From the NCBI RefSeq assembly GCF_004010195.1, contig NC_057726.1, positions 70,009,468 to 70,073,467 of the forward strand: a stretch of DNA of 64,000 bases, in the 5' to 3' direction. Below are positions 3,895 to 64,000 of this stretch, piece after piece. The notes under the pieces are model-generated. The model saw only the letters and a program-made list of their open reading frames with translations, was not told the origin of the DNA and made no database searches. The translations under genes were made by a program, and so were the position numbers. Origin of the DNA: Chiloscyllium plagiosum (lineage: Eukaryota). Position 1 is the first letter of the stretch. Each line of letters opens with the position of its first letter.

Positions 3895-5362
3895 TTTTAC
3901 ATTACCCGATTTGAGATTAAATCCAAAACCTGTAAGCATTAGCTGAAGTTAATATTTTTGTTAGCGCAACCCGGACAGGGAAGAATATTGCAAACACAGA
4001 AAATTAAAACAAACTAATCCGCGGAAATGTAAATTGAAAACAAGCAACGACATTGCGGCACCAAATGGCAAAATGTGGGCGTATAGACAAAAAAAAACCT
4101 CTCACCTGGTCAAAAAAATGAAATGTAGGAGTGTGAAATAATTTAAAAATATACAAGCTTTTTAAAAGGCTCCAATCAGATTTTTCGTTTGTTGCTTCAA
4201 ATTTTGCTGTGAATAAATGAAATTTTTCATGACGGATTTTCATAAAGCTTGTAGCTGCGATTTCCGACTGAGAACAAATTCTAAGAATAACGTACAACTT
4301 ATCTGAAAGTCGATTCTACTTAAGTTACAATAGTGTATGTTGTTAGATAAAAGAAAAGACACAGCAGTTGTATTTCCCCATCTGAAATCCATTTATTTTA
4401 TGGAAAAAGAACCCAATCTTCTTATGACACTGAAGGTATGTGCAGTAGGTATGACCCTGAAGAAAAGGCTGCTGTATAAAACTAGCGTTTCATTCGGACA
4501 GTATTCTGGCACAATATTTTCTATTTTATCTTTTTCTAGTCTCGTTTTTAAAATTATGTCTTTGTAACCTTACACTTATGTTGTTCTGTATGTGCATAAA
4601 GTAAAGATTCACCTGTTTTATTATTTATCTACTTTAGTGTGTTGTGGTATGGTTATTCTCTGTGGAAAATAATTAAAGAAGGGCCTGTGCCCGAAACGTC
4701 GAATCTCCTGTTCCCTGGATGCTGCCCGACCTGCTGTGCTGTTCCAGCAATAAAGTTTCAACGGAAAATAATTAATGTATAGCTGTTCTCATCATAGTGA
4801 TGGTATTCTTCAAATGCTATTTTCATGTCATAACTTTGTTAAATTGGGATTTTTGAAAGCATTTAATAATTTCTAACAAATTACATTACTATAATTTTAC
4901 AGCTTTAAAACGTTTTCATTTCAATATTCCCCTGTCGAGAATCATGGTTTGTTACACTAGGAGTTGTTTGAGTTGTGCTTCTTACATTAACATTAAAAAG
5001 GTGATTTTTTTGTGGCCAATGCTCCGCTCTGCAAAATGTGATTCATTGTCAACGTGATCAACTATATTCTCGAAGCTTTATCTGATAGAGTAAATGATTT
5101 AGGGGTGAAAAAAAAGCGAATGCGACGTTTCAACTCCAATGATTTAATTGTCCATGGGTACTCAAAGGTTTTGCGTTATTCTTGTAAAAAAAAGCAAATC
5201 GAGATTTGGTAATTATAGATAAAGTCTATCAACTTGATTAATCCATTTTAGCCTTAATAATTACTTGAAGTCAGAAAGTCACAACATTGTCCACCATGGT
5301 GTTGGGGCTGTTGTCACATGTCCTGAGAATTCATGGCTCATTTTTCGTTGCACATTCTGTAA
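3895..5362. repeat. Local direct duplication, copy 1
   Basis: Colinear with 5600-6977 from TTTTACATTACCCGATTTGAG to CACATTCTGTAA. Confidence 0.95.
4677..4762 (+). mobile_element. 86-bp Penelope terminal fragment with 13-bp TSD
   Basis: GGAAAATAATTAA duplicated at 4664-4676 and 4763-4775; empty site present in copy 2 at about 6377-6389. Confidence 0.9.
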
Positions 5363-5599: not shown

Positions 5600-6977
5600 T
5601 TTTACATTACCCGATTTGAGATTAAATCCAAAACCTGTAAACATTAACTGAAATATTTTTATTTTTGTTAGCGCAACCCTACAGGGAAGAATATTGCAAA
5701 CACAGAAAATTAAAACAAACTAATCCGCGGAAATGTAAATTGAAAACAAGCAACGACATTGCAGCACCAAATGGCAAAATGTGGGTGTATAGACAAAAAA
5801 AATCTCTCACCTGGTCAAAAAAAAATGAAATGTAGGAGTGTGAAATAATTTAAAAATATACAAGCTTTTTAAAAGGCTCCAATCAGATTTTTCGTTTGTT
5901 GCTTCAAATTTTGCTGTAAATAAGTGAGATTTTTCGTGACTGAATTTCGCAAAGCTTGTAGCTGCGTCTTCCGACTAAGACTAAATTCTAAGATTAACAT
6001 GCAACTAATCTGAAAGTTGATTCTACTTAAGGTACAGTAGTCTTTGTTGTTAGATAAAAAGAGTGACTCAGTAGTTTGTATTTCCCCATCTGAGATCCAT
6101 TTATTTTATTTTATGGAAAAAGAACCCGACTTTCTTATGACACAGAAGGTATGTGCAGTAGGTATGACCCTGAAGAAAAGGCTGCTGTATAAAACTAGCG
6201 TTTCATTCGGACAGTATTCTGGCACAATATTTTCTATTTTACCTTTTTCTAGTCTCGTTTTTAAAATTATGTCTTTGTAACCTTACACTTATGTTGTTCT
6301 GTATGTGCATAAAGTAAAGATTCACCTGTTTTATTATTTATCTACTTTAGTGTGTTGTGGTATGGTTATTCTCTGTGGAAAATAATTAATGTATAGCTGT
6401 TCTCATCATAGTGATGGTATTCTTCAAATGCTATTTTCATGTCATAACTTTGTTAAATTGGGATTTTTGAAAGCATTTAATAATTTCTAACAAATTACAT
6501 TACTATAATTTTACAGCTTTAAAATGTTTTCATTTCAATATTCCCCTGTCGAGAATCATGGTTTGTTACACTAGGAGTTGTTTGAGTTGTGCTTCTTACA
6601 TTAACATTAAAAAGGTGATTTTTTTGTGGCCAATGCTCCGCTCTGCAAAATGTGATTCATTGTCAACATGATCAACTATATTCTCGAAGCTTTATCTGAT
6701 AGAGTAAATGATTTAGGGGTGAAAAAAAAGCGAATGCGACGTTTCAACTCCAATGATTTAATTGTCCATGGGTACTCAAAGGTTTTGCGTTATTCTTGTA
6801 AAAAAAAAGCAAATCGAGATTTGGTAATTATAGATAAAGTCTATCAACTTGATTAATCCATTTTAGCCTTTATAATTACTTGAAGTCAGAAAGTCACAAC
6901 ATTGTCCACCATGGTGTTGGGGCTGTTGTCACATGTCCTGAGAATTCATGGCTCATTTTTCGTTGCACATTCTGTAA
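5600..6977. repeat. Local direct duplication, copy 2
   Basis: Colinear with 3895-5362 but lacks the PLE insertion. Confidence 0.95.
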
Positions 6978-32754: not shown

Positions 32755-33098
32755 TTTGTTTGCAACTGGCTCTTTCTGTAAGTTCTGGGGTAATCTCGGA
32801 TAAAGTGACCCAGTTACCAGGGAACATGACTAAAAGTGTCGGTGCAAATATGTCATTCGATTGCTCGCTTCGTTTATTTTCAAGTCGGCCACGCTGTTAA
32901 GGTAACTTGGTGGAAGCAAGGTGATTCTTATTATCTACACGCGGAACAAGATGGCCGAAAAGTAACTGGCCACAAAAATTAGGTGGTTTTCTTCAGATAA
33001 TCCATGTCTGTGTACAGGACAGAGGAATGTACTATTGCACAATCGTCCATCAAGCCAAATTGATTGGAAACAGAACAGGGTACAATTAAAAGTGTGTG
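32755..33098 (+). pseudogene. Ig V-set (VJ-type) exon, frameshifted
   Basis: ttag| CLQLALSVSSGVISDKVTQLPGNMTKSVGANMSFDCSLRLF /fs/ QVGHAVKVTWWKQGDSYYLHAEQDGRKVTGHK /fs/ LGGFLQIIHVCVQDRGMYYCTIVHQAKLIGNRT /fs/ VQLKVC g|gt; canonical C, W and DxGxYxC; aligns with 54028-54360. Confidence 0.9.
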
Positions 33099-34604: not shown

Positions 34605-34914
34605 TTCCACCGACTCCACTGAATATTCTCTCAGCAGCCTGGAAAAGAGCCATCTGTGACCCTTGCTGTTTTATGCTCCACAGCTCCCTTTTACCCGAGG
34701 GATACCAGTTTTACTTGGTACAAAGATGGCAGTAAAACTACAACAGGAATCAGTACAGTCATTTGAGCAACAGACAACAGATGATACGAAGCATCCAGCT
34801 GGTTGGAAGAAACACAGGCAATCCGATCCAGAACTGTTTATACCTGCATGGTATCCCACAGCACCGTCCAAAGTTCAGCTGCAGTCAGTCACATCATAAT
34901 GAAGGACAACCCGG
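34605..34914 (+). pseudogene. Ig C1-set exon, inactivated
   Basis: PPTPLNIL /fs/ PGKEPSVTLAVLCSTAPFYPRDTSFTWYKDGSKTTTGISTVI*ATDNR*YEASSWLEETQAIRSRTVYTCMVSHSTVQSSAAVSHIIMKDNP; C1 motifs CxxxxFYP, W, YxCxVxH; TGA at 34764 and 34782; acceptor reads CG and donor reads AA. Confidence 0.9.
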
Positions 34915-50599: not shown

Positions 50600-52374
50600 T
50601 GCTCTGTGAACAAAGTTTTTTCAACGAGGCCATGAAGCCTTCCCATCTTATTAAACATTTGGAAAAGAAACACAGTGACAAAAAAGGACAAAGGTTTGGC
50701 ATATTTGCAAACATTAAAGAATAAATTCAATCAGCGACCAACGATTTCCACTGCTTTTTCAAAGATGGGAGCCACAAATGTGCATGGCCTTGTGGCATCA
50801 TACAACAGAGCGAAGTTAATTGCAAAATGTGGTAAACCTCATTCCGTGGGTGAATCGTTGATGCTTCCAGCTATTGCTTAAGTATGATCAACCATGCTGC
50901 CTCAGGAACCATCAAGCGTATTCTTCTTAGCAACGATTCCGTGAGAAGGTGCATTGATGAAATAGCCTCAAATGTTGAGGATAAATTATGTTCCCTTTTG
51001 ATATCGAAAGAAATCGCCTTACAAATTGATGAAAGTACTATATGCAGAAATCATCCTTCACTTTAGGGGTACATACGTTACATCGACAAAAATGAAATAT
51101 GAGAAGAACTACTTTTTGCTCTGGATCTACCGACAGATACCAAAGGTAAGACTATCTTCGACTGCGTCAAGGATTATTTTGATAAAAAATCTGTTCCCCT
51201 CAAAAACATTGTTGCTTGTGCTACGGATGGCGCATGCGCTATGACTGGCCAACATCAGGGATTTGTCGCATTATTAACGAGAGAAATGACACATGTTTTC
51301 ACGCATTATACATCGGCAGCATCTGGCTGCAAAGAAATTTAATTAATCCCTCAACCATTCTCTACAAGTGGTGATAGATGTGATAAATTATATAAAGAGA
51401 CATGCTCTGAATGAATGACTTCTCCGTCAACTCTGTAAAGATAATGAAGATGAATTTCTACAATTGCTGTTACACACACAAGCGAGATGGCTCTCAAAAG
51501 GAAAATGCCTCAATCGTTTTCATGAGCTGTTCGTTTCTATCATTGAATTCCTACACAGAAATAATGAAAAGCTTTGTATAAAATCCGAAACCATAAAACA
51601 TGACTGTGCATATTTTGCAGATATATTCGATAAGTGCAATTCGTTGATCATGCAGATACAAGGAGAGAATGTGAGTTTCATAAAAGCAAGGAATGCTGTT
51701 ACATCTTTTATTGTGAAACTTGATCTCTTTCATCGAAATATCAGTCGTTGTGTGTTTTAACAGTTCCCAAGATTAAACAACATCAGGGAGGATGTTACTG
51801 ATGATCAATTACTTATCTACTCAGCTCACATTCGTGCACTGCAAGATGATATGAAAATATTACAGGATAGTGGGCTAGTGTAGGTTAGGTGGGCTTGGAT
51901 CGGCACAACATCGAGGGCCGAAGGGCCTGTACTGCGCTGTATTCTTCTATGTTCTATGTTCTATGTTCTATTATTTGCTGATCTTATCAAGATGGAGATC
52001 GCGACATGGCTGACTGACCCCTTTATCTCATTCGCAGAAGAAATGGACATTCGCCTTCAGGAAGAAATGAAAGAGCTCCAAAATGACACCGCAATGAAAA
52101 TTCGGTTTTCACAATGAGTGAGCCCCTTTTTTGGATCCAAGATGCCACCTGATGTCGTTTCTGGCTATTACATGAAGAGGCAAAGTGGTTTGCACTACCA
52201 TTTTCTATCTCTTATTTGGTTGAGAAAGGATTCAGTGCCATCGCTAGAATACAAGATCAGACCCGCAATCGCATGGATGTTGTTCAGCATGGTGACCTGA
52301 GATTGCTTTTGACAAAAATTGAACCAGATGTATATGATTTAGCAAGACAACATGAACCACAAGGATCGCATTGA
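50600..52374 (+). pseudogene. hAT transposase remnant (ZBED5/SCAND3-like family)
   Basis: BED-finger end (NEAMKPSHLIKHLEKKH), IAKCGKPHSVGESLMLPA, LSNDSVRRCIDE, ALQIDEST, ATDGACAM, LLHTQARWLSKG, C-terminal QGSH*; many stops and frameshifts; CR1 tail inserted at about 51864-51970. Confidence 0.92.
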
Positions 52375-52858: not shown

Positions 52859-53439
52859 ACAAACTTTTGTGATTTGGGGGCGTTGCGTGATTTGAAGGAT
52901 AAGAAGGGGGCGTTGATAACGGAAAGGTTGAGAAACACTGATCTAAATTAAATACCATTTGCTACTCTTCGGCCATTGCCCCATCTGATCAAAATCCCAT
53001 TTTCCTTCTTTTCCCTGTCCACTACACCTTCAATTTTGGTGTCACCTCCAAACTTATTAAGTATGCCTCCTACGTTCACATTCAAAAGCATTTAAATAAT
53101 GATGAAAAGCAGCAGACCAGCACCGAAACTTGTGGCACACCACAGGTCACAGGCCTCCATTCTGAAAGGCAACGACTCCACCAACACCCTCTATCTTCTA
53201 TCTTTGAGCCAGTTATGTATCGAAATGGTTGTAATCTAAACTTGCTAAGCAGTCTTCCATAAAGAGCCTTGTTGAACGCCTTATGGGGATACACTTAATC
53301 AACTCTTCCTCAAGGACACCCTGACTGGGTTGGTTCGAACAATCGACATGTCGATTAAAATCTCATGCCATTTGCTATACCATTTTTACAGGCATTAGTT
53401 ATTTCTATGTTTATAGGTGAAGAAAACAGTTAAATTATC

Positions 53440-53461
53440 ATGGCTTATGTTACCTTTCATG
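53440..53461 (+). CDS. Probable leader (signal peptide) exon of gene 2
   Basis: ATCATGG Kozak context; ATG GCT TAT GTT ACC TTT CAT G|GTAAAG, phase 1; splicing to 54028 gives MAYVTFHVLDILLSVSVCSSG; a possible upstream acceptor lies at 53415-53416. Confidence 0.55.
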
Positions 53462-54027
53462 GTAAAGGCAACACTTTTGTTTCTCCTTCACAGCTCCCCG
53501 TCCAGATTTACAGCAAGAGATTCTCCACTTGCCAGCAGAAGCTGTGTGACATCACGGACAGTTCCGAAACGATATTGCAGACACAGGGGCACCTTTGCTC
53601 TCATTGTCTCGACAGTATTTCCATTTCCAACTCTGTGAGTTAGCCATTCACGCTGGCGGATATGTTGGAGACTCCATCATTTAGCGACATATCTTTCCTG
53701 GGAATTTTGTATGTAGGTGGGCATTTAGATTTCATGTTAATTATTAAACTTCCCTGAGCAAGAACTTGTGTCCGATATCCTACACAAGCTAGCTTTCTGC
53801 TACTTGAACTTCATTAAATATTTTCATATTGAGTGTTCTTTGCAGAAAAGAATGATGTGAATGTGAAAAGCAATATTGGTTATGGTAATTTAATTAGGAA
53901 ATGCATTCGTTAGCAGGATAGATAGTTAAACTTAGATGGTTAAGCAGCATTACTAATGTAACAAAAGACGGGATGCACAATATTAGTTTTAGCAGTGTTT
54001 TTGTTTCCCTCTGTGGCTATGATTTAG

Positions 54028-54360
54028 TTTTGGATATTTTGTTGTCAGTTTCTGTCTGCAGCTCTGGCGACCATGGCTGGAATCTGGCACAAACACCGGC
54101 GCGCCAGGGTGGGAATGTTCTCTTCCGGTGTCCTTTCCCTTTCCATGTTAATCACTCGGCGGTAACTGCTTACTGGTGGAGAGACGGGAACAAGAGCTTC
54201 CTGCAAGCAAACGGCAGGAAAAGGTTCACTGTGAGGAGAGGCGGCGCGTACCTTCATGTTCTGAATGTGACTGTTGCGGATGCCGGTGTGTATCACTGTG
54301 CCGTCAAATATCAGCATCGAACAGTTGGGAAAGGAACCGAGATGCAAATCCTCGTGTCTG
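54028..54360 (+). CDS. Intact Ig V-set (VJ-type) exon of SIRP-like receptor, gene 2
   Basis: tttag|...TCT G|gtaagc, 333 nt, phase 1-1, open: LDILLSVSVCSSGDHGWNLAQTPARQGGNVLFRCPFPFHVNHSAVTAYWWRDGNKSFLQANGRKRFTVRRGGAYLHVLNVTVADAGVYHCAVKYQHRTVGKGTEMQILVS; C, W, DAGVYHC and J-like GKGT. Confidence 0.9.
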
Positions 54361-55261
54361 GTAAGCGTTGCTAAAAATTATAAACGGGAACATTTTCGGA
54401 GATATTGGGATTAGGCCATTCAGCCCCTCGAGCCTGTTCCCCCATTCAATGAAATTATGGCTGAACTTCAGCCTAACTCCACTTATCTATGTTTGGACTA
54501 TATCCCTTAATATCTTTTGCTTAAAAAAAATTAATAAAATCTCAGTTTAATATTAACGACAATCATCCACTACTGTGTGTAGAAGAGTTCAAACCTCTAC
54601 CACCTTTTGTGTGTAGCAGCGCTTCCAAACATCTCTCCTGAAAGGTTTCACTCTCATTTTTAAACATTCCAATGTTGTTTGTTCAATATATAACAGTCCT
54701 GAGTATAAAACAGTACATTTCTCTAATGCAGTAACTGGAGCAACATGCATTCAACAATGGTTAGGTTTCTAGGGACAGGACCAGAATCCCTGATAATAGA
54801 AACAACAAAAAGAAAATCAAAGTTGGGAATAAAGACCTTTTTTAAAATGTGAGTATTCTATGTTTGGGATGGATAATTGCAGGATTATTCACAATTTTAG
54901 AAATATAACATGAGCTGTTTTAACACATCATTTAAGCAAGTCAAAAAAAAACTTCATTTAGGTTTGCTTGGTTACTAGAAATTTATAGATTTTTAAAGCT
55001 TGTTTAACTTATTGGGTATAAAAACACTTACTCAGAATTGGAATGCTGAGACAAGGGGAGAGGTGTTGGTTTTTTGAGATCCGAACAAAATCCTTCATTC
55101 GCAATCAATTGCAACCGAGAAGCCGCTTGAGATTACACCAGTATAGGGTCATAATCTCTGCCACCTCAGTTCGGCTCAGAGCTTGACTCTGGACGAAGGT
55201 CGCAAACAAAACCTGCTGCATGTGAAAATAACAGTGCTCGTACAAATACTGATAAATGGAA

Positions 55262-55770
55262 AATGTTGTGAAACTTCAAAGGTTCAGAAAAGATTTACAA
55301 GGATGCTGCCAGGGTTGGAGGATCTGAGTGACAGGGAGAGCATGAACAGGCTAGGGCTGTTTTCCCTGGAGCATCGGTGGCTGAGGGGTGACCTTATAGA
55401 GATTTACAAAATTAGGAGGGGCATGGATAGGAAAAATAGACAAAGCCTTTTCCCTGGGGTCGGGGAATCCAGAACGAGAGGACATAGGTTTAGAGCGAGA
55501 GGAGAAAAAATATAAGAGGTCTAAGGGGCAACTTTTTCACGCAGAAGGTGGTACGTGAATGGAATGAACTGCCAGAGGATGTGGTGGAGGCTGGTACAAT
55601 TGCAACATTTAAGAGGCATTTGGATGGGTGTGTGAATAGGAAGGGTTTGGAGGGATAAGGGCCTGGTGCTGGAAGGTGGGACTAGATTGGGTTGGAATAT
55701 CTGGTCGTCATGGACGGGTTGGACCGAAGGGGCTGTTTCCATGCTGTACATCTCTATCACTCTATAATTG
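55262..55770 (+). mobile_element. CR1 LINE 3' end
   Basis: KVQKRFTRMLPGLEDL...LRGDLIEIYKI; same subfamily as 9640-10110. Confidence 0.92.
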
Positions 55771-56090
55771 TGGAACAGATACAAGTGATAACACATGTGG
55801 TAATATGCTATAAAATGAAACTTTAAGATGAAAACTTTGTTGGGAAGAAGTGCAACTGTTTTCCAATACAACGACCGCCCCCACCCCCCCCCCCCCCCCA
55901 ACCATGATATAGTCATGAAACAAATCTGTTAATGACTCTAACATGCTCCAACAGCCCTCTGCACACACACACGACAAATAGCTCCACACAGGTGGGAGCA
56001 CTTCAGTCAGTCACTCTATCCATATCCCTTCCCACCATAGTGCCCAATGGTTGACTATTTACTAATGGGCAGCTGTAGCAATGCATTAGT

Positions 56091-56414
56091 GGGCGGCACG
56101 GTGGCACAGTGGTTAGCACTGCTGCCTCACAGCGCCAGAGACCCGGGTTCAATTCCCCCCTCAGGCGACTGACTGTGTAGAGTTTGCACGTTCTCTCCGT
56201 GTCTGCGTGGGTTTCCTCCGGGTGTTCCGGTTTCCTCCCACAGTCCAAAGATGTGCACGTCAGGTGAGTTGGCCCCGCTAAATTGCCCGTAGTGTTAGGT
56301 AAGGGGTAAATAGAGGTGTATGGGTGGGTTGCGCTTCGGCGGGGCGGTGTGGACTTGTTGGGCCGAAGGGCCTGTTTCCACACTGTAAGTAATCTAATCT
56401 AAAAATCTAATCTA
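56091..56414 (+). mobile_element. Full-length HE1-type V-SINE
   Basis: Box A TGGCACAGTGG, box B GGTTCAATTCC, V domain, CR1-like tail and (TAATC)n. Confidence 0.93.
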
Positions 56415-57389
56415 AATTTTGGAATCAATGTCCCTTTAAGCCAAAGTTTTATATCTATTCCAGCATCTCGAGATTTCCATTAAGATTTTCTCAAAACGAA
56501 GCATGTGTCTTATCTCTCACAGACTTGGAAAAACCTGCTTGCTTTGTCGAACTCAGGGTTGCTGAATATTCTTAGTGCTATCCCTCACATGCGCACCATG
56601 AATCTATTGAACCCCACCATACTGAACACCTTATGTAAGGCTAATTACCATTTCAGGGTATTCAAGTGTCCCCTGGGTCAACACAGGGTCAGTGCCAATG
56701 TCTAAACAATGAAAAATAACAACTTTATTTAAAGCATGCAGTGGAACAATAACACACAGTCAAAATAAGTGTAGTTATGATATCATTGGGGATACGGCCA
56801 ATAGCTATCTGAAAATATTGATATTGATTACATTTTTTTAAAAAAGAAGCAAAATTACTCTTAGACTTAAATGAATATTATACACATTAAAAATTGACTT
56901 CAGATTTGCTGAAATATGTATCGAAAGAAAAGCAAAAATGAGCTATGAAGTCGAAACTTCAAAAAGAAATCTGAGTTCTGATTGTCGGCATATAATACAG
57001 ATAGCAAATGGGATGCTCGCCATTCCGATCAGAAGAAGGATTTGTTCTGATTGTTGAAACAAAATGTGACCTGTACTGGTGGAAGGCGAGGTTAGGGGCG
57101 GGATCGAGAGGGTGAGTCAAAAAAGAAGGAATTATGATGGGCAGCTGCTATTTCCTTTCCACAGAAAAGATGGTAAAATGTTTGAAGTAAAAGACCTTGA
57201 GCCTGCTTTTGATATTCAGCCACATGTGACACCAAAACTTTAATGTTTTCTTTGTGCTTGACAATGCTTAGCTCAGGCACATTTTGAAGGAATTCAAATT
57301 CACACCTGAAAATTTCTTCATAGCTCCAGCTCAGGCCTTTGATGGTCACTTTGTAAAATTACAATATGCTGGTTTCACAAAATCACAAA

Positions 57390-59990
57390 ATGAGACCATG
57401 AGTTGAAAAAGTAGATGTATGGCATTCATTGAATGAGATCATAGTTGATTTGATAATCTTTAAATTCATTTTCCTGCCTTATCTCACTAATCATTGATTA
57501 AAAGTCTCTCTGTCAGTTCTAAACGACCTTCTGCCCTAAAGAACTCCATGGATTGACCATCCTCTGATACAGGAAATTCTTCCTTGTCTGTCTTAAATGA
57601 GTGACCCCTTGCTCTGACACTATGCCCTCTGATTCCTACATTCTTCCACAAGGAAAAATAATCTCCCAGCACATATTCTGGTGAGCCTATAAATCTCTGA
57701 GCCTCTATGAATCTGACATGTTTCAACTAGGTCTTCTAAAGTCAAATGAGTAAAAAACCTAGAAGACTCTGCCTCTCCCCTTACTAAAATTGCCCCAGAA
57801 CCGGAAACATCTCAGTGGATCTTTTCTGAACTGTCTTCGATGCCAATCTATCTTTCATTAGGTAAGGGAAAATCTACTTTTCCAGATGGGTCTCATTTGT
57901 ATAGTTTTAGCAAAACTTCCCTGTTTTTGTGCTCCATTCTTTTGGAAATAAGATCAGGCAATTTTCCCTTCCTATCGCTGACTGAACATGGTTGTTAGCT
58001 CCTTGTGATGCATGTGCTAGGACATCCAGATCACTCTGTGTTAAAGCTTTCTGTAATATTTCCTTATTCAAATAATATTCAGCTCTTCTATTTTTCCCGC
58101 TGACGTGCATGACCTCACATTTTCCACATTATATTCCATCTGATAAGTTTTTGACCATTCACTTAACCTGTCCATATCTCTCTCAATACTTATTGTGTCA
58201 TCCTCACGACTTGCCTACCCATTTTTTTTTGTATGGTATCAGCGAACTTGGTAATAGAATATACAATTCTATCATCCAAGTCATGAGTATATTTTATAAA
58301 TGACAGCGGCCCCAGCAACCTGTGGCTCTCCACTAGTTACAGGTTGCCATCCTGAAAACCCAACTTATTTCAGTGGTGTCTTCTATTAGCTACTCAGTCC
58401 CTATCCAAGCTAACATGCTACTTACATGATCTTATTGAATGCCTCTTCAAAGGCAATGCTGTTTTGGTTTGATTTTTTAAAAAAGATGCTTGTCTAAATG
58501 CTGTGTTATTTATGACAGACTCTAACATTTCACATTAACAACTGTCAAATTAACCAGCCTGACATAGAGTCACAAAACATGGAAACAAACCTTTTGGTCC
58601 AACCAGCCCTTGCCAACCACAATTCCAAACTAAAGCAGTCCCACCTGCTGACACTTGGCCCATTCCCTCCAAACATCTGTTGTTCATGTTCTTATCAAAA
58701 TGTTTTTTAAGCAATTTACCACTTCCACCTTTTCCTCTGGAAGTTCATTCTACACAGGAGCCACTGTCCGTGTAAAAAAAAAAATACCCACATGTATTTT
58801 TAAGATCTCCTTCCTCTCCCTTAAAAATATGCCCGCTACTCTTGAAATCCCCCACCCTTAGGGTGCCATTCACCCTGCCATTCACCTTGTCTATATCCTC
58901 ATTATTATTTTAAATTTCTCTATGATCACTTTAAATGTACTACGCTCCTGTAACAGGGTGACCAGAACTGGACACAGTACTGCAGAAGAGGCCTTACCAA
59001 CATCCTGTATAACTTCATCATAATGTCCCAAATCCTATACTCAAAGGTCTCAGCAATGAAGAAAATCAAGCTAAATGCCTTCTCAACCGCCCGATCCATA
59101 TGTGATCCAAATTTCAAAGAATTATAGACCTGAACCCTAGGTCTGTCAGTTCTACAACAGTACCCAAGGCCCTACTTATACTTGGATAAGTCCTGTCCTT
59201 GGAATGTGGGGTTGGAAAAGGAAACAGGTCTGATGGCATCTGAGGAGCAGGAAAGTCAATGTTTTGAGCCGAAACCTTTCGGACATTCCTACACTTATTT
59301 GTTTTACCAAATTCACGCTTATCTCACGCTTATCCGAAAGAAACTGCATCTGTCACTCTTCAGCCCATTAACCCAATTGATCAAGCTCACTTTATAATCT
59401 AAGATACTCTTCTTCACTGTCCACTATACCACCAATCTTTGTGTTATCCTCAAAGTGACTAATCATACCTCCTATATTCTCATCTAAATTATTTATCTAA
59501 ATGACAAACAAAGTTAGACCCAGCACCAATACCCGTGGAACACCTGACCTGCTGTGCTGTTCCAGCAATAAAGTTTCAACTTTGATCTCCAGCATCTGCA
59601 GACCTCACTTTCTCCTCGAAGATTTATACTTGTGTAAGTCCTGTCCTTGGAATGTGGAGTTGGAAAAGGAAACCGGTCAGACGGCATCTGAGGAACAGGA
59701 AAGTCAATGTTTTGAGCTAAAACCTTTCGGACATTCCTACCTTTATTTGTTTTATCAAATTCACGCTTATCCGAAAGAAACTGCATCTGTCACTCTTCAG
59801 CCCATTAACCCAATTGATCAAGCTCACTTTATAATCTAAGATAATCTTCTTCACTGTCCACTATACCACCAATCTTTGTGTTATCCGCAAACTCACGAAT
59901 CGTACCTCCTATATTCTCATCTAAATCATTTATCTAAATGACAAACAAAATTAGACCCAGCACCAATACCTGTGGAACACCGTTGGTCAC
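57390..59990 (-). mobile_element. Degenerate CR1 LINE fragments
   Basis: LYRMLVRPLLQYCVQFWSP (58926-59117) and other ORF2 remnants; 3' tails near 57400 and 58565. Confidence 0.85.
59176..59981. repeat. About 365-bp direct duplication flanking an about 80-bp PLE terminal fragment
   Basis: 59176-59544 and 59624-59981 are colinear; spacer 59545-59623 matches the PLE end at 2458-2534. Confidence 0.9.
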
Positions 59991-60779
59991 ATAACTGTTT
60001 GTTTTGTCCCTTTTTGAATAAGAAAGTTACATTGGCAGTTTTCCAAATGTTTGCCACTCTACCAGAAAATAAGGACTCAAGGATTTCTATCAATTCTTTT
60101 ATTTCTATTACAGTCCATTGTTGGACCCCATCAACCTTCAAACTCATTTGGTTCCACAGTACACTCATGATAATTATTATGTTTATTTCCACCACCCCCA
60201 CATATCCTATGCTGTGAAGATTAATACAGAGTATTTATTCAATTCTTTTGCCATTTGCTCTTTCCTCATTATTATTTTCTCAGCCCTGCCTCATTGTGTG
60301 AAGGACCAGTGTTCATGTTGGACTTCCTTGTCCTTTTTTATATATTTAATGTCTACTTGCTAATTTGTCCTCATAGTTTATTTAATCACACTTAATTTTA
60401 TTTTTGTCATCTTTTGTCAGCTTTGAAATCATTCCTAATGCCCTGGTTTACCAGTCAGATTTGCCAATTTGTGTTAAATTTCTTTGAATTTAATGATATC
60501 CTTTACTTCCTTGGATAATCATGCTTGTCTTATCTCCTTCTGAGAATCCTTTTTCCTTAATGGGAGATATCTTTGTCATGAGTCATGGATTTTTTTCTTA
60601 AATGTTTGTTGTTGCTCCTCAACCCTCTTTTCTGTTATTTATTTTCCCAGTCTACACTCAGCCCTCATTCCTATTTATCTTTTATTTAAGTTTGGCACAA
60701 TTGTTCCAATCCAATTTATGTAATCTCAAGCTGAATGCTAAGATAGACTATGTAATGATCTCTGTTCCTGAGCAGATCT

Positions 60780-61240
60780 CCTACTTTGAGATCATTTAGG
60801 TTCTGCAAAACTGTCTCAGAAAAGATGATGTTGAAATTGTACATGACACTTATTAGACCACCTCTGGAGTATTGTGTACAGTTGTGATCCACATTATCAG
60901 AAAAATGTGAATACATTGGTGAGAGTGCAGAAGTAACTTATTAGAATGATCTCAGTGATGAGAAACTTCAGCTATGAGGGTAGATTGAAGAAGTTGGGAT
61001 TGTTCTTCCTGGAGAGAAGTACTTCGAAAAGAGATTTGATTGAGATTTTCAAAATCCTGAGGGGGCTAGGCAGAGAAGATCAGGAAAAGTTGTTCCTACT
61101 GGTAAAAGAAACAAGACTGAGAGGGCGTCCAAATGAAGCAAGGATTATGTGAGAAAAAAAATAATCCACATAGGGTAAGGGTTTGGAATGCACTGCCTGG
61201 AAATGTGGTGGAGGCAGGTTCAGTTGAGGTATTCAAGAGG
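60780..61240 (+). mobile_element. CR1 LINE 3' fragment
   Basis: SYEGRLKKLGLFFLE...RDLIEIFKILRG. Confidence 0.85.
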
Positions 61241-61249
61241 TGTGGGGAA

Positions 61250-61615
61250 GTGACAGTCCAGTGGTATTATAGATAGATAGATTATTAATCTAGAAGTTCA
61301 GCTAACATTCTGAGGACTGGGTTCAAGTCTCACTATGGCAGATGGTGGAATTTGAATTCGACTTAAAACAACTTTGGAATTAAGACACTACTGCTGACAG
61401 TGAAACCAATTGTTGGAAAAGACCACCTGGTTCATTAATGAAGGAAATCTGCCATCCTCATCTGGTCTGGCCTACATGTGACTCCAGACCCACAGCAATG
61501 TTGTTGACTCTTAACTGCTCTCTGAAATGGCCTAGCAAGTTCAAAGGTAACGAGGGATGGCAATCAAGTTATTGCCAGCCAGTGACGTCCACATCCCATG
61601 AGTGGGGAAAAAAAA
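61250..61615 (+). mobile_element. SacSINE1-like SINE
   Basis: GGGTTCAAGTC box B; GAAGGAAATCTGCCATCCTCATCTGGTCTGGCCTACATGTGACTCCAGACCCACAGCAATG core; A-rich end; same family as 1-240. Confidence 0.7.
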
Positions 61616-62336
61616 CTGTTTGAATATTTTTACATAATTAGAATCTACAAGGATATGAGGAAAGGGCACAAAATTGGTACTAGATCATAGAGCCTGTGCA
61701 AACGTGATGGGCTAAAAGGCCTCCTTCTGTATTATGATAAATTCTATGACTCTGTCAGATGAAAAGTTCACCATATGTTCTGTAGACACTCATTATTGAA
61801 CAACCTAGAACAATGAAACTTCAATAACATAGAGCAATGTAAGAAAGATGTTACTCATCACAAACTAAGGGAGCTTTTGATAATGTTGGTGTATCTACAA
61901 ATGATCAACTGGGCATGCTGGAAAACAGAGAGCATTCAATGTGTGGTTGTGGGAAAATGGTTGACTATAAGGTCAACATTTCCACTTATGAAACAGCATA
62001 TGGAAGACCCATTTATAATCAATTAACTTTTAAATATCTAATTTATATGCTCCAAAATAAAATATTTAATATGTGGGGATTTGTGCTATAGCACCTAAGA
62101 AAAAGGAAAACAAACAGGTAAATATGTATAATTCAGTACAAATACTCAGGGCTGTGTTATTTCATGACAGCAGCATACAATAAAGGAGTGGTGGAGAATG
62201 AGAAAGAAGTCCCTGAAAATCAAAAGAAACCTCGAAATTCAAAATGAAATCCTCACGGAAGCCTCTCAAAGTGTGTCCTCAAAGGAAAATTGATTTAATT
62301 CCTGAGTTGCTGACCAAGCAGGCAATTTTAGATGAC

Positions 62337-62568
62337 TTTAGATTACAGACAGTGTGGAAACAGGCCCTTCGGCCCAACAAGTCCACACCGACCCACCGAA
62401 GCGCACCCACCCAGACCCATTCCCCTATATTTACCCCTGCACCTAACACTACGGGCAATTTAGCATGGCTAATTCACCTAACCTGAAAATTTTTGGACAG
62501 TGGGAGGAAACCGGGGCACCCGGAGGAAATCCACGCAGACATGGGTAGAATGTGCAAACTCCACACAA
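62337..62568 (-). mobile_element. 5'-truncated HE1-type V-SINE
   Basis: CAGTGTGGAAACAGGCCCTTCGGCCCAACAAGTCC tail and V domain. Confidence 0.9.
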
Positions 62569-63387
62569 TCAGTTTTGTCCTGGATGCTGTCAAGTTTCCT
62601 GAACGTTCCTGAAGATTCACTCATCCAGGAACATGGAGGGTATTCCATAACACTCCAGACTTGTGTCTTGCAGTTTTTGTAAAGGTTTGGGATTTCAGAA
62701 GGTGAGATACTTGACCCAGACTAGCCAGCCCGTGAGCCCGTTTGCAGTTAAAGTGTTTATATGGTTAAGTCCAGATCTCCCTCAGGATGTAAACAGTGGG
62801 ACATTCTGTGAGTGTAATGCCAACAATGCCAAAGGAGAGTCTGGGTACTCGTTGCATGCACAGATATTCTTTTCTGAGAAGTTGTTTTTTGAACTGAACA
62901 TTATACAGTCATTAGCAAACATTCCCACTTGAGACGTTATATTGGAGGTAAATTATTGATGAAGCAACTGAAGAATGGGTATAGACCTGACAAACTGCTG
63001 AAATGATGTCCCAGAGCTGAGTAGATTGACCTCCAAAATCCACAACCATCTTTCTCTGCGCTAGGCACGTGGAATACTAAGCAGTAGAATAAAGACCCCC
63101 CTTTTCCCCAACCACCACCATCCACCCAATTTATTCTGGTTTACTCAGGTTTTGATTTGGCACACACAGTAAAATGTTTCCACGATGTGAAGATCAATCA
63201 TTTTCAGTTCGGTGCTGGAGAGTAAAGGATGAATTATCTTTGCAGTTCATTCACAAAATAACATTTAACTAAGATCCAACGAAGATGCCTTGATGTGGTT
63301 ACTAAACACTGTACATGAAGGTAAAACAGTTAAAGATATTCATTTGTTTTTTTTTTCTAATCTTTTTTTCTTTTTCTTTCAATTTAC

Positions 63388-63692
63388 CTGCTCCTGTACC
63401 CCTGAAGATTGTCTCCACATCATTCCACAAGGCTTCATCTACCTTTATGAGACTCCACTGTCAAACGGCTGAGTTTCATCCGAAGGAATTCAACCTTACC
63501 TGGCATAAAAATGGCACCAGAATTCTGACAGGAATTTCAACTTACAACAGGAAACAACAGACAGACTGTGTGAAGTGATCAGTTCCTTAGAAGAGACACG
63601 GCCAATTGAGCAAGGTACGGTTTACACCTGTCAAGTCTATCATGTTTCTATCACTGGTCCAGCAAATTGCAGCTGCATTGTCGACAACGTAG
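63388..63692 (+). pseudogene. Ig C1-set exon of gene 2, frameshifted and acceptor lost
   Basis: APVPLKIVSTSFHKASSTFMRLHCQTAEFHPKEFNLTWHKNGTRILTGISTYNRKQ /fs/ DRLCEVISSLEETRPIEQGTVYTCQVYHVSITGPANCSCIVDNV g|gtaaa; strong pyrimidine tract but TAC instead of TAG at 63385-63387; aligns with 34605-34914. Confidence 0.88.
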
Positions 63693-64000
63693 GTAAAATT
63701 ACAACAAACACGATGCATGTATATGTTCCATCAGCAGTAGTTGAACGGTTGTTGCAGATATTGTGTCACTTGTAAAATATAAAGAGTACTCTGTATTTAA
63801 TTCAATACCACTATGGAATCTTCAAATCCGCTAGTAATTCAGAATTTTATGCAGGTTCAACATAAATTTGAGTAGTGTGGCAGGATGCATTCATCTATCT
63901 AATTTCAGGCAACGTATCCAGTACTATATTAAGCACAGACATAATGTTGCACTCCACAGAATGATGAAAGCAGTAGAGGAATCTCAAGGAGAAGAAAACT

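What the first reader, a model, noticed from the sequence alone, without database searches (positions are those of the whole stretch)
53440..63692. Paralogue with pristine V exon but dead C1 exon: possible domain loss by exon skipping
Seen: leader and 333-nt V exon are open with canonical splice sites, while the C1 exon 9 kb downstream has lost its AG and carries a frameshift. V, C1 and (in gene 1) TM exons are all phase 1. Inference: skipping C1 would keep frame and give a V-only receptor, after which C1 could decay. Read-through of the V donor would instead give a secreted V domain ending VSGKRC* at 54374. A young pseudogene whose V exon has not yet been hit is the null explanation.
Basis: partly seen in the sequence, partly recalled or inferred. 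Interest (0 to 1): 0.7.

Follow-up and report, generated by a model that had tools for sequence, protein, structure and literature searches.

The report
Dying duplicate of shark immune receptor
This is a recent copy of a shark antibody-like cell-surface receptor gene that is broken in several places and is likely dying, while its near-identical sister copy is intact and transcribed, so its clean-looking first domain likely reflects youth and sequence exchange with the sister, not a new one-domain receptor.

Summary
Lesions confirmed; the mechanism is mostly not. The gene is a leader-V(J)-C1-TM(Arg)-tail member of a roughly 40-gene shark receptor cluster. It is one of two copies in a collinear duplicate of at least 56 kb (5.7% non-coding divergence). 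The sister, 467 kb upstream, has an intact C1. The window copy has C1 acceptor TAG>TAC and a 1-nt deletion. Beyond the window its TM donor reads GC and its tail donor AT, so damage is not confined to C1. The V looks pristine because 294 bp are identical to the sister, synonymous sites included, as gene conversion would give. All 3 differing V bases change amino acids in the window copy. Spliced contigs from 3 of 3 RNA-type runs carry sister letters only. One-exon-only damage is common in the cluster (6 of 11 damaged genes). Best reading: young pseudogene (0.75). One twist: a sister-type contig splices V to a cryptic exon in the V-C1 intron that ends in a stop. That exon is intact in the window copy, so a secreted V-only product is not excluded (about 0.1).

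The parts
53281..64000 (+). 5' part of a collinear segmental duplicate (at least 56 kb, runs beyond the window) shared with the sister locus at C17:69.595-69.645 Mb; homology starts in a repeat 381 bp upstream of the ATG. The gene's TM exon (L001 4302-4413: open, Arg near the outer end, acceptor intact, donor GC vs sister GT) and cytoplasmic exon (L001 5382-5467: open, donor AT vs sister GT) lie 3.8-5.0 kb beyond the window end
53662..53716 (+). true leader exon MLETPSFSDISFLGILYV, phase-1 donor GTGGGC (sister GTAGGC)
   Evidence: tblastn of orthologue P0001; spliced joint in 3 runs
54049..54360 (+). V(J)-type Ig exon, 312 nt, open, both Cys and Trp present, J-like GKGT; 3 window-derived amino-acid changes at the 3' end (54340, 54348, 54358)
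54046..54339 (.). 294-bp tract identical to the sister (a further 162-bp identical run at 53809-53970); likely gene conversion
   Evidence: 0 of 2000 simulations reach 294
54732..54833 (+). cryptic exon in the V-C1 intron: AG acceptor, tail VTGATCIQQWLGF then stop, AATAAA at 54828; used by a sister-type spliced contig in run X12; intact in the window copy; that it is a terminal exon is inferred
61280..61532 (.). 253-bp purely intronic tract identical to the sister, next to an assembly gap in the sister's scaffold
63388..63692 (+). dead C1 exon: acceptor TAG>TAC at 63387, 1-nt deletion at 63542/63543, Q>H and two Y>C changes; the next AG (63406-63407) would enter out of frame and stop at 63470-63472

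Best explanation
This is a recently duplicated copy of a shark V-C1-transmembrane receptor gene that carries a lost C1 splice acceptor, a C1 frameshift and two altered downstream splice donors, and it is likely a young pseudogene whose V exon stays clean because few mutations have accumulated and because the V was likely overwritten by gene conversion with the intact, transcribed sister. Shown: the duplication, the lesions, the 294-bp identity tract and sister-type spliced contigs. Inferred: a segmental duplication carried the gene with only about 380 bp of its own upstream DNA into a new context. Selection then relaxed and lesions fell at the neutral rate along the gene. Any residual transcript would most simply use the next AG in C1 and hit a stop after 21 codons, a likely decay target.
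For: 3 of 9 located splice sites have a changed invariant base in the window copy against 0 of 9 in the sister; 0.5 hits are expected at the neutral per-lineage rate (P(>=3)=0.014; the 3/9 vs 0/9 contrast alone is not significant, Fisher p=0.21). Polarised on P0001, the window copy has 8 derived amino-acid changes spread over V (3), C1 (3), TM (1) and tail (1), with 6 synonymous differences in both lineages together. The V has 0 synonymous differences where 4.2 are expected (P=0.016), which selection on protein does not explain; identity also covers intron 53809-53970 and an intronic 253 bp. All spliced leader-V contigs in X9, X12 and X14 carry the 5 sister substitutions and the 3-bp deletion. 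Of 39 cluster genes with V and C1 both located, 28 show no lesion, 5 are broken in both, 4 in V only and 2 in C1 only. Homology to the sister stops at 53281. The sister's upstream matches a related paralogue's upstream (83% over 2.1 kb); the window's does not. Full-length V-C1-TM(Arg) relatives exist in Chiloscyllium, Scyliorhinus and Heptranchias.
Against: V, TM and tail exons of the window copy have no stop or frameshift, and leader and V splice sites are canonical. A GC donor can work (recalled), and tail read-through would still give a protein. Contigs drop minor variants, and the three RNA donors may not carry this copy, so lack of window-type RNA is not proof of silence. The sister itself has 5 derived amino-acid changes in these exons plus 3-nt and 9-nt in-frame deletions, so both copies may be relaxed. 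Conversion confined to a ligand-binding exon can be adaptive in paired receptors (PMC3210942, passages). The V-end changes look harmless: GTE also occurs in open paralogues L065 and L078. The direction of the donor changes is assumed from the GT rule; no outgroup DNA was available.
Confidence: 0.75

Rival explanations
1. The window copy has specialised as a gene for a secreted V-only protein: V would splice to the cryptic exon at 54732, end in a 13-residue tail with a free Cys and use AATAAA at 54828. C1, TM and tail exons would then all be free to decay.
For: This exact splice exists in a sister-type contig (X12, depth 12.7). Acceptor, frame, stop and AATAAA are intact in the window copy. The four clear lesions all lie downstream of this exon.
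Against: The X12 contig has the 5 sister letters in that exon and sister letters in the leader. It is seen in 1 of 3 RNA-type runs. The exon differs between copies at 5 of 72 bases, the neutral level. No 57-182 aa relative was found in the protein collection (a weak word-based search). The upstream region is truncated at 53281.
Confidence: 0.1
2. One reading: C1 is skipped and the gene makes a membrane V-TM(Arg)-tail receptor.
For: The V donor and TM acceptor are both phase 1 and intact and the TM exon is open. A C1-less isoform is modelled for a Heterodontus family member (P0086 vs P0172).
Against: The TM donor is GC and the tail donor AT. The latter would remove the C-terminal VGYDAL motif of the P0001 model, though model P0003 reads through there. 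A nearer AG 20 nt into C1 would compete and give a stop.
Confidence: 0.07
3. The lesions or the clean V are assembly products, or the two copies are divergent haplotypes of one locus, which would make the window copy a null allele and not a paralogue.
For: The sister is in three pieces around gaps, and one break falls inside the V identity tract. The intronic identity tract abuts an N gap. DNA run X4 shows no window-type leader contig and a third sequence type at 53852-53964.
Against: X4 holds window-type intron contigs (54422-54657 and 54628-54758, 1 difference each) beside a sister-type one. The lesions are single-base events whose neighbours keep the outgroup state. The copies differ by 5.7% plus many insertions over at least 56 kb.
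Confidence: 0.08

Closest known systems
Chondrichthyan V-C1-TM gene models auto-named 'tyrosine-protein phosphatase non-receptor type substrate 1-like', 'tapasin-related protein-like' or 'NCR3 ligand 1-like' (e.g. XP_072403667.1, Chiloscyllium punctatum)
   Same: V 93% identical to P0001; same leader-V-C1-TM-tail order; Arg-bearing TM conserved in P0001, P0002, P0170 and P0171
   Different: The window copy has a dead C1 and changed downstream donors. The names are automatic best-hit labels; 7 literature searches listed no paper devoted to this family.
SIRP paired receptors (SIRP-alpha 2wng, SIRP-gamma 4i2x)
   Same: Non-rearranging joined VJ plus C1 domains (PMC11599192 passage); SIRP-alpha is the best non-antibody PDB hit (E 7.5e-13); the family has ITIM-tailed and charged-TM members
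   Different: One C1, not two (SIRP layout recalled); TM Arg, not Lys (recalled); antibody chains score as well; ligand unknown
CD300C / KLRC / PIR paired receptors: repeated pseudogenisation of activating members and conversion of ligand-binding exons (PMC12447643 abstract; PMC3210942 passages)
   Same: Short conversion-like tracts over the ligand-binding exon and flanking intron; loss of an Arg-TM, likely activating-type copy
   Different: Unrelated protein families; there the exchange is between opposing receptors, here between two same-type twins
UrIg / UrIg2, NKp30, PRARP non-rearranging VJ(-C1) genes (PMC12227049 abstract and Introduction; PMC10751288 passages)
   Same: Unsplit VJ exon; C1-set constant domain
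   Different: UrIg is secreted with three C1 domains; this family is multi-copy, single-C1 and membrane-bound; synteny not tested

Membership tests
Chondrichthyan V-C1-TM receptor cluster family | Single-exon VJ domain followed by one C1-set exon and a TM exon, all phase 1 | tested here: met
Chondrichthyan V-C1-TM receptor cluster family | Location in the multi-copy cluster; close full-length homologues | tested here: met
   49 V and 29 C1 matches, mostly at C17 61.5-62.3 and 68.9-70.7 Mb; P0001 93%
Unprocessed pseudogene | Introns kept, disabling lesions relative to an intact homologue | tested here: met
Unprocessed pseudogene | No productive transcript or protein | tested here: inconclusive
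   3 of 3 RNA-type runs show sister letters only, but contigs cannot show absence
Unprocessed pseudogene | Neutral coding evolution | tested here: inconclusive
   8 window-derived amino-acid changes vs 6 synonymous in both lineages; numbers small; V distorted by the identity tract
V-only receptor by C1 skipping | In-frame V-to-TM junction possible | tested here: met
V-only receptor by C1 skipping | V-to-TM junction with window letters in RNA | tested here: inconclusive
V-only receptor by C1 skipping | Downstream exons and splice sites preserved | tested here: not met
   TM donor GC, tail donor AT
SIRP | V-C1-C1 ectodomain (recalled) | tested here: not met
   one C1 in P0001 and relatives
SIRP | Tandem ITIM tail or TM lysine (recalled) | tested here: not met
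   TM Arg, 41-aa tail with one ITIM-like motif in P0001
SIRP | Conserved synteny / phylogenetic grouping | not tested
   no tree or synteny analysis run
SIRP | CD47 binding | not testable with these tools
   needs binding assay

The most novel reading that the evidence does not exclude
A receptor duplicate caught in the act of turning into a secreted decoy. The parent gene already makes a V-only transcript through a cryptic exon with a stop and polyA signal. The window copy has fixed that output by losing C1 and membrane-exon splicing, while gene conversion keeps its ligand-binding V identical to the membrane-bound sister's.
Probability: 0.1. Interest if true: 0.65.

Novelty: new member of a known kind. 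Interest (0 to 1): 0.27.

Why it matters
As a pseudogene it is an ordinary birth-and-death casualty. It does warn that a clean exon next to a dead one can come from conversion with a twin and not from selection. The more useful by-product concerns the living sister: it is transcribed, has an Arg-bearing membrane segment conserved to Heptranchias, and in one RNA-type run splices V to a cryptic stop-containing exon that would give a soluble V domain. If the window copy did the same, it would be a datable example of a membrane receptor becoming a secreted decoy in a little-studied shark immune family.

Tried and rejected
Leader at 53440 and the 333-nt V: rejected. My own first guess of a leader at 53366-53417 was also wrong; it lies in a repeat. 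Read-through VSGKRC*: no contig supports it. Long V-C1 intron as a sign of decay: rejected, since the sister shares it where sequenced, and V and C1 matches 9.8 kb apart occur at 62.05 Mb, assumed one gene. Purifying selection on V as the cause of its cleanliness: rejected because synonymous and intronic sites are also identical. The run search listed no holder on record as RNA; X9, X12 and X14 were judged RNA-type only from their spliced contigs. What follows V in the X9 (1385 nt) and X14 (166 nt) contigs was not shown; it lies outside 53300-55100. A pattern search for the last exon ('AL' + stop) found nothing in the sister, so that exon is unlocated. A search for short V-only proteins found none. 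Dropped from the 39-gene count: 10 V hits with no C1 located (L024, L026, L045, L049, L051, L053, L070, L075, L076, L078) and 6 C1 hits with no V paired; paralogue V splice sites were not checked. PMC6761025 and PMC4594805 were not held. The main text of PMC7677710 has no hit for SIRP, tapasin or NCR3; no supplements were read for any paper. No structure prediction or tree was run.
Full report
Setting. The window is G000:C17:70009468-70073467 of a 3.56-Gb genome. The V peptide finds 49 matches and the C1 peptide 29, mostly in two clusters on C17. The closest named protein is a 292-aa leader-V-C1-TM-tail model from Chiloscyllium punctatum, 93% identical over V (P0001), so the organism is a bamboo shark or close relative. 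Relatives occur in sharks, rays and a chimaera under automatic names. Of 53 relatives screened, 15 have two or more ITIM-like motifs and 9 have an Arg in the membrane window with a tail under 50 aa, P0001 among them; 9 had no membrane segment called. This looks like a paired-receptor family, and this gene likely belongs to the activating type. That reading is inferred: a TM Arg marks an activating receptor in PMC3210942 (passage on KLRI2).

Gene model. P0001 matches 53662-53716, three runs splice 53716 to 54049 with GT..AG ends, and the ATG at 53440 is CTG in the sister. V is 54049-54360 (312 nt) and C1 is 63388-63692. TM and tail exons lie just beyond the window, at L001 4302-4413 and 5382-5467.

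The sister. A second copy lies 467 kb upstream on the same strand. It is split into C17:69595561-69596553, scaffold C83659, scaffold C95215 and the sequence after the gap; the first two abut to the base at 54285/54286 and the last two at 63945/63946. Collinear homology runs from window 53281 to at least 46 kb past the start of L001. Non-coding divergence is 619 of 10824 aligned bases, 5.7%. The sister's C1 is open with a TAG acceptor. The window lesions are therefore younger than the duplication: TAG>TAC at 63387 and one base lost at 63542/63543, each flanked by the outgroup state. They were not checked in reads. Window-type intron sequence next to V is present in a DNA run of another study (X4).

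Damage is not limited to C1. The window copy's TM donor is GC and its tail donor AT, against GT in the sister; its leader donor is GTGGGC against GTAGGC. That is 3 of 9 sites with an invariant base changed, against 0 of 9; 0.5 are expected neutrally (P=0.014; Fisher on the contrast p=0.21). Against P0001, amino-acid changes derived in the window copy number 3 in V, 3 in C1, 1 in TM and 1 in the tail. The sister has 5 in these exons, 1 site is unpolarised and 6 differences are synonymous (leader and split codons not counted). The sister also has in-frame deletions of 3 and 9 nt, so it is not a model of strict conservation. With the C1 acceptor gone, the next AG is 20 nt into the exon and would give a stop at 63470-63472.

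Why V looks clean. V differs from the sister at 3 of 312 bases (P=1.4e-5 at the background rate), with 54046-54339 identical; 0 of 2000 simulations gave such a run. Synonymous sites show 0 differences where 4.2 are expected, and identity extends into the intron (53809-53970); a 253-bp intronic run exists too. Selection on the protein does not give this. Gene conversion does, and short patches over ligand-binding exons are described for other paired receptors (PMC3210942 passages; PMC12447643 abstract). Assembly cross-talk between the copies is not excluded. Outside the tract, all 3 V differences are amino-acid changes in the window copy, though they look harmless.

RNA. Four runs were laid on 53300-55100. 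X9, X12 and X14 each give one spliced leader-V path with all 5 sister substitutions and the 3-bp deletion, and V ends as the sister's would. No window-type spliced contig appears. Contigs show presence only, and X4, the DNA run, also lacks a window-type leader contig, so silence is suggested, not shown. In X12 the contig runs from V into 54732-54802 with the 5 sister letters there. This cryptic exon gives a 13-residue tail and a stop, with AATAAA at 54828, and all of these are intact in the window copy too. In X9 and X14 the contigs continue outside the laid stretch.

Base rates. Of 39 cluster genes with both exons located, 28 show no lesion, 5 are broken in both (window gene 1 among them), 4 in V only and 2 in C1 only (this gene, and L064 with acceptor CG). 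One-exon damage is thus the commonest damaged state (6 of 11), as expected of young pseudogenes. The duplicate also carries only 381 bp upstream of the ATG, about 135 bp of it a repeat. The sister's upstream resembles a related paralogue's, and the window's does not, which suggests the window copy is the displaced daughter (inference).

Comparison. C1 skipping is not new to the family: a Heterodontus model, isoform X4, lacks exactly the C1 exon of isoform X2; its RNA support was not seen. The family works like a paired Ig-type receptor system but fails two SIRP features tested here, and antibody chains score as well as SIRP-alpha in PDB. UrIg differs in layout (PMC12227049 abstract and Introduction; PMC10751288 passages). 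Seven searches listed no paper on this cluster; two likely relevant papers were not held. Earlier scan notes describe the same cluster as a paired family with decaying copies; they are unchecked notes and were not used as support.

Verdict. Young pseudogene with a converted V, 0.75; secreted V-only specialist, 0.10; artefact or allele, 0.08; C1-skipping membrane receptor, 0.07. Interest 0.27.

Noticed in passing
sister locus, L012 about 453-520 (window-equivalent 54732-54802), run X12: The transcribed sister splices V to a cryptic intronic exon ending VTGATCVQQLSGF*, upstream of AATAAA: a likely soluble V-only isoform, the only path in that run's contig.
   Followed up: partly
window 32823-33086 and 34623-34910: Gene 1 of the window is broken in both V and C1 (stops and frameshifts); it is 80-89% identical to blocks in L019/L020 and L036.
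   Followed up: partly
L064 3260-3330, minus strand (C17 about 69.156 Mb): A second cluster gene with open V and open C1 whose C1 acceptor reads CG, not AG.
   Followed up: partly
L050 3410-3718 and 8229-8537, minus strand: Two C1 exons with identical translations 4.8 kb apart; a very recent duplication or an assembly duplicate.
   Followed up: no
window 53852-53964, run X4: A third sequence type (7 differences in 113 nt) beside one identical to both copies; may be an unconverted allele or a third copy.
   Followed up: no
P0086 vs P0172 (Heterodontus); P0159 vs P0158 (Scyliorhinus): Database isoform models lack the whole C1 exon, or most of V through an internal splice, so domain-dropping isoforms are already modelled in this family.
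   Followed up: partly
window 50636-52114: Fragments in several frames that look like a hAT-type (ZBED/SCAN-like) transposase; label recalled, not tested.
   Followed up: no
window 3895-5362 / 5600-6977; 59176-59544 / 59624-59981; 1387-1598 / 2284-2495: Local duplications: tandem at 93-99%, direct 369 bp at 91%, and an inverted 212 bp at 98% around the 43-N gap.
   Followed up: no
P0001 C-terminus; L001 5467/5468: The only ITIM-like motif of the orthologue model (VGYDAL) spans the donor that is dead in the window copy.
   Followed up: partly
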